Of a stretch of DNA of 64,000 nt, positions 39,001-43,842 are shown in pieces (position 1 is the stretch's first letter; each line of letters starts with the position of its first letter). The position numbers are program-made. This DNA is from Escherichia coli (GTDB lineage: Bacteria > Pseudomonadota > Gammaproteobacteria > Enterobacterales > Enterobacteriaceae), in NCBI RefSeq assembly GCF_001677475.2, contig NZ_CP015229.1; one strand, given 5' to 3'.

Positions 39001-42000
39001 ATGCACGCCAGATAGCGCAGGTTCGCCAGTATGTGGATCAAAAAAGCAGTGAAATCATGACGACAACGGACCAGAAGCTGGGAGATCAGGAGGCCACCAT
39101 CCAGCAGATACAAAAGGTTCAGACGGACACCAGTAATAACCTGAACAGTATGTGGGCCGTGAAACTGCAGCAGATGCAGGATGGTCGCCTTTATATTGCG
39201 GGTATCGGTGCCGGTATTGAGAACACCCCCGACGGCATGCAGAGTCAGGTGCTGCTGGCGGCAGACAGGATTGCGATGATTAATCCTGCAAATGGCAACA
39301 CAAAACCGATGTTTGTTGGTCAGGGTGATCAGATATTCATGAATGAAGTGTTCCTGAAATATCTGACGGCTCCCACCATTACCAGCGGCGGTAATCCTCC
39401 TGCATTTTCCCTGACACCGGACGGAAAGCTGACCGCTAAAAATGCCGATATCAGCGGTAACGTGAATGCGAACTCCGGGACGCTCAACAACGTCACGATA
39501 AATGAGAACTGTCAGATTAAGGGGAAACTGTCAGCCAACCAGATTGAAGGCGATATTGTCAAAACGGTCAGCAAGTCTTTCCCCCGCACGAACAGTTATG
39601 CCAGTGGCACCATCACGGTAAGAATCAGTGATGATCAGAAATTTGACCGGCAGGTCATGATACCGCCAGTGTTGTTCCGTGGTGGTAAGCATGAGAATTT
39701 CAACAGTAATAACCAACAGTCATACTGGTATTCAACCTGCCGGTTAAGAGTGACCCGCAATGGTCAGGAGATTTTTAATCAGTCCACGACGGATGCTCAG
39801 GGCGTATTTTCCTCAGTTATAGATATGCCTGCCGGACAGGGGGCGCTGACACTGACATTCACCGTATCTTCATCAGGAGCGAATAACTGGACACCAACAA
39901 CCAGTATCAGCGATCTGCTGGTTGTGGTGATGAAGAAATCCACAGCAGGTATCAGTATCAGCTGAATTTTATAACCCATAACGGGCGTCAGAAATGACGC
40001 CTTTTTTATTGCAGAAAAGCGAGAGGTAATTATGCGTAAACTTTATGCCGCCATTTTGTCCGCAGCCATTTGTCTGGCCTTATCCGGTGCGCCTGCATGG
40101 GCGTCTGAACATCAGTCCACGCTGAGCGCGGGGTATCTTCATGTCTCGACGAACGTTCCCGGCAGCGATGATCTGAACGGGATTAACGTGAAATACCGTT
40201 ATGAGTTTACGGACACACTGGGTATGGTGACGTCATTCAGCTATGCAGGAGACAAGAATCGCCAGCTGACCCGTTACAGCGATACCCGCTGGCATGAAGA
40301 TTCCGTTCGTAACCGCTGGTTCAGCGTAATGGCGGGGCCGTCTGTGCGCGTGAATGAATGGTTCAGCGCGTATGCGATGGCGGGTGTGGCTTACAGCCGT
40401 GTGTCGACTTTCTCCGGGGATTATCTCCGCGTAACTGACAATAAGGGGAAAACGCACGATGTGCTGACCGGAAGTGATGACGGTCGCCACAGCAACACGT
40501 CTCTGGCGTGGGGAGCTGGCGTGCAGTTTAACCCGACCGAATCCGTGGCTATTGATATTGCTTATGAAGGCTCCGGCAGTGGCGACTGGCGCACTGACGG
40601 TTTCATCGTGGGTGTCGGTTATAAGTTCTGATTAGCCAGGTAACACAGTGTTATGACAGCCCGCCGGGTTCAGGCGGGCTTTTTTGTGGGGTGAATATGG
40701 CAGTAAAGATTTCAGGTGTCCTGAAGGACGGAGCGGGTGAGCCTGTCGTAAACTGTGCGATTGAATTGCGAGCCAGAAGAACCAGTCCGACAGTTGTGGT
40801 TAATATTGTGGCAACCTGTCTTACGGGAAGTGATGGCGGGTATACTATTAATGCTGAGCCGGGATTTTATGATGTATTTTTGTCCCGCTCAGGGCATCCT
40901 CCTGTAAAGGCGGGGGAAATTTATGTTGCACCGACAGATGAGCCGGATACGCTGAATGCTTTTCTGGATGCACCAAAGGAGGGTGATTTACGCCCTGAGG
41001 TAATGAAGCGTTTTGAGGAAATGGTAAATACCGTTGTTCGCTTGTCTGAGCAGGTGGTCAGTGACAGGGAGAGAGCAGAAACAGCTGCTGATGATGCAAT
41101 CAATGCAGCAACATCTGCGGCGGTTAGTAAGGATGAGGCAGAAGAGCTAAAAAATCAGACACAGCAGAGCGCCGAAGCTGCAGCCGGAAACGCACAGCAG
41201 ACGGCACAGGATGTGACGACAACCGCAACGGCCCGTGATGATGCGGAACGTTTTGCGGGTGAGGCAGAAAACAGCGCACAGTCATCAGGCACAGCGCGGG
41301 ACGAATCAGTCGATGCCGCCGAACGCGCCCGCCTTTATCATAATGCCGCATCATCAGCAGCGACCAGTTCAGAACTGTCGGCAAATGCGGCGCTGGGGCA
41401 CAAAAACAGTGCCGCCGAATACGCCCGACAGGCTAAAGCCAGCCAGGATGCAGGTGCAGACAATGCGCAGGAAGCGAAACAGTACAGGGATGAGGCGCAG
41501 CAGATAGTTGATGACCTGAATGCAACAAATGCCTCCACGACAGAAAAAGGTCTGGTGCAACTCTGTAGTGATACGGACAACGACAGCGAGGAACTGGCTG
41601 CCACGCCAAAGGCTGTCAAAGACGTCATGGACGAGGCGAAAACAAAAGCGCCACTGGACAGTCCGGCCTTCACCGGCACCCCAACCACCCCAACCCCACC
41701 GGATGATGCCGCCGGTCTGGAAGCAGCGAACGCAGCGTTTGTGCGCAAACTGCTTGCTGCGCTGGTTGGCTCATCGCCGGAAGTTCTGGACACCCTGAAC
41801 GAGCTGGCAGCGGCGCTGGGCAATGACCCGAACTTTGCGACGACAATCACAAACGCGCTGGCAGGCAAACAACCGCTTAATGACGTCTTAACGGCAATCA
41901 GCGCACTGACGCAACGGGCAGATAATCTTCTGTACTTCAATACAGACGGGAATGCCTCACTGTCTCTGCTGTCAGAGAAGGGCCGCGCATTACTGGCGCA

Positions 42001-43842
42001 TGACACGGCTGAAGCCATGCGCACGGAGCTTGAGCTGAACGCGGCTGCGACGATGGAACCCCAGAGTGATATCCGTGACCGCACACCGGGCAGGCTGGCC
42101 CTGTCCGGGATGTATGGGTTTGGACAGGCATTCACCAGCACTGACGCTCTGGCGTTTGAGGGGCTGTCTGATTTCGTTGAGTGGTTGAAGAAAGTCACGC
42201 CGGGGCGGTATGCGGTCAGTATTACAGACTCCTCGCAACTGCTTACCGGTACCACGCAATTTAACGGCATTATTGATGTGATGTGGTCACCGTACGCCAA
42301 CAGTGAATCCGACACAGTCCGCAAATTTAAAACCCTGATGTGCTACAACCAGTATTATCAGGGTGAACACTGTATTCACTATATGCAGTACCGGTACAAC
42401 GACAGCGATAACAGCTGGAACATGTCATCGCGGGTAGTTGTATACGACGGAGATTCACTGGCGTACCTGCTGTCCAGGATGGCGGGCTCAGGCTCATATT
42501 ATAAATACCCGGCCGTTGGTGTGCCGATTATGGCGGCATATCAGGGGGAGAGTTTTGGTGCAGATGCGTCTCTGGGGCTCGGTGATATTGTGCCGGGTTC
42601 CCGTCTTGGCCCTCTGGCTATGAGTGCACGGGTTAGCGATACAGGGACATACGCATCCTCACCGCAGGTTGTGATTGGCGGTGCTGGTGAATACAACTTC
42701 CCCGGTCGTTACACGGCGCTTTCGGGGACCCGCATTAGTCACGATACAACGCGTGGCTATATCGGTCTTTTTGTACGCATTGAGTAATAAGGAAATAAGA
42801 CATGAAAATCAGAGCGGTGAAAGGCATCAGAAACGCGCATTATCTTGAAAATGGTGCGGTTGACTGCGAGGTGTTATTTGAAGGTGAAACGGAGTTCGTC
42901 CTGTATACCGCCATACAGGATGATATGGCCCCGACAGGCCAGCATGTCTGGCAGGAGCTGCAAAGCGGGAAATGGGGCGAAATCGCCCCGTTCACCGTCA
43001 CGCCGGAACTTATTGCAGCGGCAAAGGATGCCAAAAGGCGGGAAATTGAGGCATGGCGCGACAGTCAGGAAAACGTTGAGTTTATTTTCACGTTTGATGG
43101 CCGTCGTTTTGATGGCGGAAAAACCTCGCAGTCACGCCTTGCCCCCGTGGTTGCAACAGCACAGGCCGGACTGCTTCCGGAGGGATTTTTCTGGACTGAT
43201 GCGGATAATAATAACGTCGTACTGACCAGGGAGAAACTTATTGCGCTGAACGATGCCATGATGGTGGCCATGGTGGCGGAGGGCTTTAAAATCCACGAAC
43301 GTCAGCGGGAGATGAAAGAGGAACTGAGCAGCCTGGAGGATTTACGCTCAATCAGAGCGATGGCGATTAGCAGTAATTAGCGGTCAATTCTGGGCTCTTT
43401 GTCTGCTCCTTCACCGTCTGGAATTGTGTGTCAATTAGCCTGGAATTAATCGGGTTCAGATTGTTTTGTTGTGGCAAAATTGGGACAAAAGGGGCAAAAA
43501 TGGGGCAAAAAAAGAGTAGGTTATTGTGGTTTATTGTAGTTGCTGATATGTTTTAATTCATTGAAAATGAAATAAAATACTTATGAGTCAGATGGTTGCA
43601 ATTTTTGTCCTTACTTGTTCAGGTTGTATTGTTCTTTCTTACTAATTTCTTGATTTTGCGACATTTAAAAGCGACTCAATTCGTTATATGGCATCAGAAG
43701 AGTATGCGTCATGCCGGAATGCCCAGCATAAGAAATCTGATATAAAAACAGTGGCGTGTATGGTACGGATTAGAGGGGAAAATGTCAGCACATTTGCGAA
43801 ATGAATCAAAAAGCCCGCAGCAATGTGCGGGCGTTAGTGTCA

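What the first reader, a model, noticed from the sequence alone, without database searches (positions are those of the whole stretch)
41900..42787. Side tail fibre with lambda-like N-terminus but a distinct C-terminal domain
stf keeps the lambda Stf N-terminus and the conserved ATPKAVKDVMDE...LNELAAALGNDP block, but the C-terminal roughly 300 residues do not resemble the Gly/His-rich repeat region of lambda Stf. Together with the unusual tfa-position gene, this suggests swapped receptor specificity.
Basis: partly seen in the sequence, partly recalled or inferred. Interest (0 to 1): 0.35.

Follow-up and report, generated by a model that had tools for sequence, protein, structure and literature searches.

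The report
Prophage side tail fibre, alternative tip
This is an intact side tail fibre gene of a lambda-like E. coli prophage whose lambda-type receptor-binding end and Tfa helper are replaced by a different tip domain and a DUF4376-type fibre chaperone, which is an ordinary example of the module shuffling that changes phage host range.

Summary
The stf ORF (40691-42787; likely start ATG 40697) follows J and lom. It resembles lambda Stf in three stretches: the N-terminal collar domain (54% identity), the ATPKAVK block, and the LNELAAALGNDP/NALAGKQP shaft, up to residue 439. The last 258 residues show no similarity to lambda and have no HxH motif, against 8 in lambda.

This C-terminal part is a small family found in E. 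coli and Salmonella prophages. It always lies at the extreme C-terminus of fibres of very different lengths. It has a conserved neck motif, a D1 domain, and a D2 domain whose hypervariable patches sit on a conserved framework. It has no Pfam family, no NCBIfam family and no recognisable solved structure.

The 192-aa downstream gene is not unusual. It is a DUF4376 protein, a class shown experimentally to be tail-fibre chaperones in Alteromonas phages and required for fibre function in a Campylobacter prophage. In all 10 other tip-family loci examined, a DUF4376 gene follows the fibre gene.

Changed receptor specificity is the sensible inference but is not demonstrated, and the receptor is unknown. 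RefSeq, PHROGs and phages phiP27 and Rac-SA53 already hold the same arrangement.

Verdict: real, ordinary, a new member of a known kind.

The parts
40697..42787 (+). stf, the side tail fibre gene (696 aa from ATG 40697; the ORF opens at GTG 40691, and residue numbers in this report count from that GTG)
   Evidence: ORF list. Position after J and lom. phrog_2636 'tail fiber protein', E 1.6e-178, over aa 3-698. RefSeq homologues start at the equivalent ATG. Shine-Dalgarno-like GGGGTG lies upstream.
40697..41098 (+). N-terminal tail-attachment (collar) domain, aa 3-136
   Evidence: PF08400 phage_tail_N, E 1.2e-40. 54% identity to lambda Stf aa 1-115. Matches PDB 9E7M/9MGH, the Ur-lambda Stf collar domain, at E 4e-21 over aa 3-94 (PMC12617516).
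41099..41494 (+). Ala/Glu/Gln/Ser-rich rod segment, aa 137-268, not alignable to lambda
   Evidence: No BLASTP alignment to lambda orf-401 in this stretch. AT skew reaches 0.35-0.37 here. Only 27-35% identity to other fibres that carry the same tip family.
41495..42010 (+). Conserved shaft, aa 269-440: the Phage_fiber_2 repeat (ATPKAVKDVMDE) and the LNELAAALGNDP / NALAGKQP block
   Evidence: PF03406 at aa 282-321, E 1.9e-16. 56% and 46% identity to lambda. 87% identity to Rac-SA53 tail3 and vB_Apl-pPE4 gp69. Weak matches to the Mu fibre S and to a tail collar fibre in the PDB.
42011..42124 (+). Neck or junction motif, aa 441-478 (ELELNAAATMEPQSDIRDRTPGRLALSGMYGFG), the conserved linker where tips are exchanged
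   Evidence: Lowest entropy of the C-terminal region across all 85 family members. 74-76% identity to fibres whose D1 and D2 are only about 33% identical. Disordered in the monomer model. A similar motif occurs in A5 gp8 (weak).
42125..42505 (+). Tip domain D1, aa 479-605 (alpha/beta domain, knob-like)
   Evidence: The AF2 model reaches pLDDT of about 80-88 over much of this stretch. Conserved among close relatives. Exchanged on its own in strain GB089: 69% identity inside a gene otherwise 97-100% identical upstream of the tip.
42506..42784 (+). Tip domain D2, aa 606-698 (beta-rich head). Hypervariable patches at aa 621-630, 641-670 and 681-690 sit between conserved framework motifs GDxVPGSRLG, PGRYxALSG and GLFVRIE. 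This is the presumed receptor-binding surface.
   Evidence: Entropy profile of 42 close relatives. Invariant columns in alignment A1. Always at the extreme C-terminus of its protein.
42789..42793 (+). Shine-Dalgarno sequence AAGGA for the chaperone gene, 8 nt before its ATG and 14 nt of intergenic space after the stf stop codon
   Evidence: Read directly from the sequence.
42802..43380 (+). DUF4376-type tail-fibre chaperone gene (192 aa) in the tfa position
   Evidence: PF14301, E 4.7e-19, 69.3 bits against a cut-off of 25. phrog_1141, E 3.4e-82. AF2 pLDDT 92.7: an N-terminal beta-sheet, then helix, beta-hairpin, helix, and a long C-terminal helix. 28% identity to the A5 gp9 chaperone. A DUF4376 gene follows the tip-family gene in all 10 other loci examined.
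43613..43638 (+). attR core, the right end of the prophage, 233 nt after the chaperone gene
   Evidence: Identical to the attB annotated in phage Rac-SA53. Occurs once in the window, with 0 matches expected by chance. uspF, ompN and ydbK follow.

Best explanation
The gene encodes the side tail fibre of a lambda-like prophage integrated next to uspF.

Shown by homology:
- The N-terminal domain is the part that, in Ur-lambda, forms the collar anchoring four trimeric fibres at the gpV/gpM junction of the tail.
- The middle of the protein is a rod and shaft with the usual conserved fibre repeats.

Shown by comparison:
- After a conserved neck motif (aa 441-478), the lambda-type HxH needle is replaced by a two-domain tip (D1, D2).
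- This tip belongs to a small enterobacterial prophage family and is always C-terminal.
- It is always followed by a DUF4376 gene.

Inferred:
- The tip binds a cell-surface receptor different from lambda Stf's OmpC, through the hypervariable patches of D2. This would give reversible first adsorption, while J makes the irreversible contact.
- The 192-aa DUF4376 protein, translated from the same late transcript, acts as an intermolecular chaperone. It would start trimerisation at the fibre's C-terminal end and may transiently cap the tip, as shown for Alteromonas phages V22 and A5.
- New specificities arise by recombination at the conserved neck and between D1 and D2, carrying the cognate chaperone gene along.
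For: Anchor domain:
- PF08400, E 1.2e-40.
- 54% identity to lambda.
- PDB 9E7M/9MGH, E 4e-21, described as the collar domain in PMC12617516.

Gene order and ORFs:
- The order is J, lom, stf, chaperone, attR.
- Both ORFs are intact. They lie 14 nt apart, with a Shine-Dalgarno sequence before the chaperone gene.

Tip family:
- 93 clusters at 90% identity, in E. coli and Salmonella.
- 98 of 1.84 billion representatives. The full-length matches end within a few residues of the C-terminus of proteins of about 250-1030 aa.

Mosaic joints:
- The shaft is 87% identical to Rac-SA53 and pPE4 fibres, while their tips are about 33% identical.
- GB089 is 97-100% identical except for D1 (69%) and D2 (86%).

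Variability: it is concentrated in D2 patches between invariant framework motifs.

Chaperone:
- PF14301 at 69 bits, and a confident model.
- Linked to the tip gene in all 10 other loci examined.
- Function shown for V22 gp27 and A5 gp9 (PMC7289586, PMC10579305) and for the Campylobacter CJIE1 H-fibre partner (PMC7882524).

Against: - No receptor can be named.
- Similarity of the tip to the experimentally studied A5 fibre is limited to the short neck motif (hhalign probability 4.6%).
- An IS21-family element interrupts the tail operon between L and K, so this particular prophage may not make tails at all.
Confidence: 0.8

Rival explanations
1. The DUF4376 protein is not a transient chaperone. 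It stays on the mature fibre tip and is itself the adhesin or part of it, as with T2/S16 gp38 or Mu Tfa. The Stf tip would then be mainly its docking platform.
For: - Known helper proteins can remain bound, as Mu Tfa does (cited in PMC10579305).
- A5 gp9 stays partly associated with its fibre.
- The central and C-terminal part of the chaperone is more variable between loci (29-52% identity) than its N-terminal sheet (52-69%). Alignment A2 shows two distinct sequence types there.
Against: - V22 gp27 does not co-elute with the mature fibre (PMC7289586).
- Among close relatives, the hypervariable patches lie in the fibre's D2. In the two closest loci the chaperones remain 92-100% identical, while D1 drops to 69% and D2 to 86% in GB089.
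- The chaperone model is largely helical, with no exposed loop-rich head.
Confidence: 0.15
2. The locus is a non-functional relic. The prophage is defective, so stf and its partner are intact only because decay has not yet reached them, and no adsorption function is exercised.
For: - An IS21-family istA/istB element lies at 32543-34794 between tail genes L and K.
- attL was not found in the window.
- Related tip genes occur in obvious remnants, such as a capsid-tip fusion in L015 and a truncated chaperone in L011.
Against: - Both ORFs are full length and co-linear with homologues in other genomes, with 93-100% identity per segment to strain N96.
- J, lom, K, L and I are also intact.
- The IS lies between genes, not inside one.
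- This rival concerns the activity of this copy, not what the genes are.
Confidence: 0.3
3. The C-terminal domain is an enzyme (depolymerase, esterase or deacetylase) acting on capsule or O-antigen, rather than a simple binding head.
Against: - No Pfam, NCBIfam or PDB sequence match of any catalytic family.
- At 258 aa with two small domains, it is far smaller than beta-helix depolymerases.
- The invariant residues are mostly Gly, Ala and aromatic or aliphatic framework residues. Asp463, Thr465, Ser637, Ser678 and Arg696 are also invariant, but no recognisable catalytic motif is present.
- Foldseek finds nothing significant.
Confidence: 0.04

Closest known systems
Bacteriophage (Ur-)lambda side tail fibre Stf with Tfa
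   Same: - The gene position after J and lom.
- The N-terminal collar domain (54% identity; PF08400; PDB 9E7M/9MGH).
- The ATPKAVK fibre repeat and the LNELAAALGNDP/NALAGKQP shaft, up to aa 439.
   Different: - The middle rod (aa 118-268) does not align.
- The last 258 aa are unrelated to lambda's T4 gp37-like HxH needle that binds OmpC (0 against 8 HxH motifs).
- The helper is DUF4376, not Tfa/Caudo_TAP.
Tail fibre plus DUF4376 pairs of phiP27 (L56/L57), Rac-SA53 (tail3/tail4), vB_Apl-pPE4 (gp69/gp70), SerU-LTIIb (stf/stf2) and Av-05 (0076/0077)
   Same: - The same tip family over the whole 258 aa, with the same neck motif and C-terminal LFVRI motif.
- A DUF4376 gene immediately downstream (37-57% identity).
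- Rac-SA53 uses the same att site next to uspF and shares 87% identity in the shaft.
   Different: - The tip is only 29-35% identical.
- Those fibres sit in P2/Mu-type or rV5-type myovirus tail modules, with a second fibre and Caudo_TAP pair. Here the fibre hangs on a lambda-type siphovirus tail.
Alteromonas phage V22 gp26/gp27 and A5 gp8/gp9 (tail fibre with a DUF4376 chaperone, experimentally characterised)
   Same: - The helper belongs to the same Pfam family (PF14301), is of similar size, lies directly downstream, and is 28% identical to A5 gp9 over 142 aa.
- A similar 'AAT.D...G...G.FGFG' neck motif precedes the distal domains (PMC7289586, PMC10579305).
   Different: - There is no detectable sequence homology between the distal fibre domains themselves.
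- The fibre N-termini and the phage types differ.
Prophage P-EibA region (J, lom, ORF-401-like, ORF-191A, eibA; GenBank AF151091)
   Same: A lambdoid J-lom-stf arrangement followed by a DUF4376 protein (ORF-191A, 43% identity) instead of Tfa.
   Different: Its Stf C-terminus is not in this tip family. Only the N-terminal domain and the ATPKAVK block align.

Membership tests
Lambda-type side tail fibre (Stf; 'prophage tail fibre N-terminal domain' proteins) | N-terminal tail-collar domain homologous to lambda Stf residues 1-94 (PF08400) | tested here: met
   PF08400, E 1.2e-40, 139 bits against a cut-off of 26.6. 54% identity to lambda. PDB 9E7M/9MGH, E 4e-21.
Lambda-type side tail fibre (Stf; 'prophage tail fibre N-terminal domain' proteins) | Gene located after J and lom at the end of a lambdoid tail operon | tested here: met
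   J (7 gpJ Pfam domains) and Lom (PF06316, E 1.5e-119) lie immediately upstream. L and K/I lie further upstream.
Lambda-type side tail fibre (Stf; 'prophage tail fibre N-terminal domain' proteins) | Conserved fibre repeat and shaft blocks (PF03406; LNELAAALGNDP) | tested here: met
   PF03406, E 1.9e-16. Aligned to lambda at 56% and 46% identity. The block is present in lambda.
Lambda Stf sensu stricto (gp37-like OmpC-binding fibre with Tfa) | C-terminal T4 gp37-like needle with HxH motifs | tested here: not met
   No alignment beyond orf-314 aa 54. 0 HxH motifs against 8 in lambda.
Lambda Stf sensu stricto (gp37-like OmpC-binding fibre with Tfa) | Downstream Tfa (Caudo_TAP, PF02413) assembly protein | tested here: not met
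   The only Pfam hit is DUF4376. BLASTP to lambda Tfa is not significant. hhalign probability 0.8%.
DUF4376 (PF14301) tail-fibre chaperones (V22 gp27 / A5 gp9 type) | Matches the PF14301 profile above Pfam's gathering score | tested here: met
   69.3 bits against a cut-off of 25, aa 73-177. phrog_1141, E 3.4e-82. 28% identity to A5 gp9.
DUF4376 (PF14301) tail-fibre chaperones (V22 gp27 / A5 gp9 type) | Encoded directly downstream of the fibre gene it serves | tested here: met
   14-nt gap with a Shine-Dalgarno sequence. The same linkage holds in all 10 other tip-family loci examined.
DUF4376 (PF14301) tail-fibre chaperones (V22 gp27 / A5 gp9 type) | Alpha-helical body with a protruding beta-hairpin, resembling intramolecular chaperone domains of T5 pb1 and the K1F tailspike | tested here: inconclusive
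DUF4376 (PF14301) tail-fibre chaperones (V22 gp27 / A5 gp9 type) | Required for, or assists, folding of the fibre into a receptor-binding form; forms a (transient) complex with the tip | not testable with these tools
   Needs co-expression and binding assays, or multimer structure prediction. Shown only for V22, A5 and Campylobacter CJIE1 homologues (PMC7289586, PMC10579305, PMC7882524).
V22/A5/R-pyocin-like distal fibre architecture (neck, knob, lectin-like head) | Knob and head folds similar to the R2 pyocin fibre or AP22 gp53 | tested here: inconclusive

The most novel reading that the evidence does not exclude
The D1-D2 tip (aa 479-698) may be a receptor-binding fold with no counterpart among solved structures, recognising a so far unidentified E. 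coli or Salmonella surface receptor. Its strictly conserved neck and C-terminal LFVRI strand may be the generic docking elements that let one chaperone class (DUF4376) serve many unrelated tips. If so, this cassette would be a portable host-range module usable on lambda-, Mu/P2- and rV5-type tails.
Probability: 0.3. Interest if true: 0.4.

Novelty: new member of a known kind. Interest (0 to 1): 0.2.

Why it matters
Side tail fibres set the speed and range of first adsorption for lambdoid phages, including the many prophages of pathogenic E. coli, and they are the parts swapped when lambda particles are engineered for delivery. This locus gives a clean natural example of where such swaps occur: a conserved neck motif, and a second joint between D1 and D2. 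It also shows that the cognate DUF4376 chaperone travels with the tip across siphovirus and myovirus tails. The practical gap is that this tip family has no known receptor and no structure. Beyond that, the finding adds nothing that databases do not already hold.

Tried and rejected
Only three stretches align.
- **Homology of the 192-aa protein to lambda Tfa:** none by BLASTP or hhalign. The statement in PMC7882524 that DUF4376 resembles the Tfa C-terminus was not reproduced against lambda Tfa.
- **Sequence search of the PDB with the tip and chaperone profiles:** nothing.
- **NCBIfam:** no family for either protein.
- **Fold search of the chaperone model:** dominated by generic helical hairpins. 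The prefoldin hit is not taken as evidence of homology.
- **Homology of the tip to A5 gp8:** only the neck motif.
- **attL:** not found in the window, so the prophage's left end was not defined.
- **Nucleotide searches in phage genomes:** no full-length match.
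Full report
**What is at the coordinates**

The window carries the right end of a lambda-like prophage. The gene order is:
- tail genes L (31771-32469), K (34891-35634) and I;
- J (36264-39965);
- lom (40032-40631);
- a 698-aa ORF (40691-42787);
- a 192-aa ORF (42802-43380).

The host genes uspF, ompN and ydbK follow on the other strand. The core sequence ACTTGTTCAGGTTGTATTGTTCTTTC at 43613-43638 is identical to the attB annotated in phage Rac-SA53. It occurs once in the window, with 0 matches expected by chance, so it marks attR.

The long ORF most likely starts at ATG 40697 (MAVKISG...). That start has a G-rich ribosome-binding site just after a strong terminator-like hairpin that closes lom. 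It is also the start RefSeq uses for near-identical genes.

**Checking the observation**

BLASTP against the two halves of lambda's frameshifted stf gives three matching stretches:
- aa 3-117: 54% identity.
- aa 269-320, the ATPKAVK block: 56% identity.
- aa 386-439, against the first 54 residues of orf-314: 46% identity.

Nothing aligns after residue 439. The last 258 residues have no HxH motif and 1.2% His, whereas the matching part of lambda has 8 HxH motifs and 6.2% His.

The downstream 192-aa protein has no similarity to lambda Tfa, by BLASTP or hhalign (probability 0.8%).

The divergent part begins near nt 42011 rather than 41900.

**Anatomy of the fibre**

- *Anchor.* Pfam finds the prophage tail fibre N-terminal domain at aa 3-136 (E 1.2e-40) and one Phage_fiber_2 repeat at aa 282-321, with nothing on the C-terminus. 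The N-terminal 92 residues match PDB 9E7M/9MGH at E 4e-21. These entries are the Ur-lambda Stf collar domain, twelve copies of which ring the tail at the gpV/gpM junction (PMC12617516).
- *Rod.* Residues 137-268 are an Ala/Glu/Gln-rich rod that does not align to lambda.
- *Shaft.* Residues 269-440 are a conserved shaft.
- *Neck.* Residues 441-478 (ELELNAAATMEPQSDIRDRTPGRLALSGMYGFG) are the most conserved part of the whole C-terminal region across 85 family members.
- *Tip.* Two domains follow. D1 is aa 479-605 and D2 is aa 606-698.

The AlphaFold2 monomer model built on a 24-sequence alignment is moderate (pLDDT 70.4). The neck is disordered, D1 is a fairly confident alpha/beta domain and D2 is beta-rich.

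**The tip is a modular family**

- A word-indexed search found 93 clusters, from 100% down to 33% identity, in E. coli and Salmonella.
- An exhaustive HMMER search of 1.84 billion representatives found only 98 hits. The full-length matches end within a few residues of the C-terminus of proteins of about 250-1030 aa. Their N-termini are lambda-Stf-type or P2-collar-type.

Segment-wise comparison shows the joints:
- Rac-SA53 tail3 and vB_Apl-pPE4 gp69 share 87% identity with the shaft and 74-76% with the neck, but only about 33% with D1 and D2.
- Strain GB089 carries a gene that is 97-100% identical up to the neck, but 69% in D1 and 86% in D2.

Among the 42 close relatives, sequence entropy is low in D1. 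It peaks in three D2 patches (aa 621-630, 641-670, 681-690) that lie between invariant framework motifs: GDxVPGSRLG, PGRYxALSG and the terminal GLFVRIE. That is the usual signature of a receptor-binding head under diversifying exchange.

**The helper gene**

The 192-aa protein is a DUF4376 protein: PF14301 at 69.3 bits against a cut-off of 25, and phrog_1141 at E 3.4e-82. The family is very common, with 1592 clusters, mostly E. coli.

Its AlphaFold2 model is confident (pLDDT 92.7). It has an N-terminal beta-sheet, then a helix, beta-hairpin, helix unit, and a long C-terminal helix.

The literature gives direct functional evidence for this class:
- V22 gp27 is required for its fibre gp26 to bind cells, and is not part of the mature fibre (PMC7289586).
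- A5 gp9 binds its fibre and was proposed to act as a transient cap (PMC10579305).
- The Campylobacter CJIE1 H-fibre needs its DUF4376 partner (PMC7882524).

The window protein is 28% identical to A5 gp9 over 142 residues.

In every other tip-family locus I opened, a DUF4376 gene follows the fibre gene. These are phiP27, Rac-SA53, pPE4, SerU-LTIIb, Av-05, L011 (a truncated copy), L012, L014, L015, and the RefSeq genomes N96 and GB089.

The converse does not hold. P-EibA has J-lom-stf-DUF4376 with an unrelated fibre tip, and the Alteromonas fibres share only the neck motif with this one. DUF4376 helpers therefore serve several kinds of tip.

**How it most likely works**

By homology, three Stf chains form a fibre that is anchored by the N-terminal collar domain. 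By inference, the D1-D2 tip makes the first, reversible contact with a surface receptor other than lambda Stf's OmpC. The DUF4376 protein, made from the same late transcript, would nucleate trimerisation at the C-terminal end and may cap the tip transiently.

J in this prophage also differs from lambda at its receptor-binding end. It is 92% identical over the first 850 residues, then has an insertion of about 100 residues, and its C-terminal part is 54% identical. Both host-range determinants have therefore diverged from lambda.

**Limits**

- No receptor can be named.
- An IS21-family element lies between L and K, so this copy may not be expressed.

**Novelty**

The arrangement is already in the databases. 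RefSeq annotates the pair as 'prophage tail fiber N-terminal domain-containing protein' and 'DUF4376 domain-containing protein'. PHROGs holds both families. Sequences 100% identical to the tip exist in NCBI. Phages phiP27, Rac-SA53 and SerU-LTIIb carry homologous pairs.

This particular allele is uncommon: 20 of 5426 complete E. coli genomes, with 98.9% as the best match.

It is a new member of a known kind.

Noticed in passing
window 32543-34794 (- strand): An IS21-family element sits between tail genes L (31771-32469) and K (34891-35634). It comprises a 499-aa transposase-like ORF with a Mu-transposase C-terminal domain and a 251-aa IstB ATPase (PF01695, E 6.7e-62). It may block late transcription into K-I-J-lom-stf.
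   Followed up: partly
window 36264-39965 (J), especially about 38750-39965: J is 92% identical to lambda J over aa 1-850. It then carries a coiled-coil insertion of about 100 aa, and its C-terminal part is only 54% identical to lambda, so the primary receptor is probably not the same as lambda's LamB contact. GC content falls from about 0.60 to 0.47-0.51 across this stretch.
   Followed up: partly
window 39983-40002 and 40658-40680 (+): Strong terminator-like hairpins with T-runs flank lom on both sides, so lom looks like a self-contained inserted unit between J and stf.
   Followed up: no
window 43380-43640; L002 5300-5510: The attR core (43613-43638) and the neighbouring 'GGCAAAAATGGGGCAA' repeats match phage Rac-SA53, which integrates at the same site next to uspF but has a P2/Mu-type baseplate and fibre module. 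Its tail3 fibre shares 87% identity with Stf aa 269-440.
   Followed up: partly
proteins P0007, P0008, P0015, P0019 and others; L011 4673-6795: Many NCBI entries for this fibre-tip family are named 'shikimate transporter, partial'. In L011 a prophage end with this fibre and a truncated DUF4376 gene abuts an MFS sugar-transporter gene, which is probably the source of a propagated misannotation.
   Followed up: partly
L015 805-2121 (protein P0285): A 438-aa protein has a Phage_cap_E (major capsid) Pfam hit on record and also matches the tip domain over its C-terminal approximately 240 residues. It lies after a head-decoration gene and is followed by a DUF4376 gene. It looks like a large internal deletion in a prophage remnant.
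   Followed up: no
L011 3001-4716 (protein P0232): This relative has two consecutive neck-plus-D1 modules (two '...AAT.DVQ.DIY.RTEG..A.PGAFGYG' motifs). This parallels the knob duplication reported for Alteromonas phage A5.
   Followed up: no
window 41338-42324 (- strand): A 328-aa antisense ORF lies inside stf, where the coding strand is very A-rich (AT skew up to 0.37). Lambda has a comparable annotated antisense ORF (orf206b) inside orf-401. It is probably a compositional artefact.
   Followed up: no
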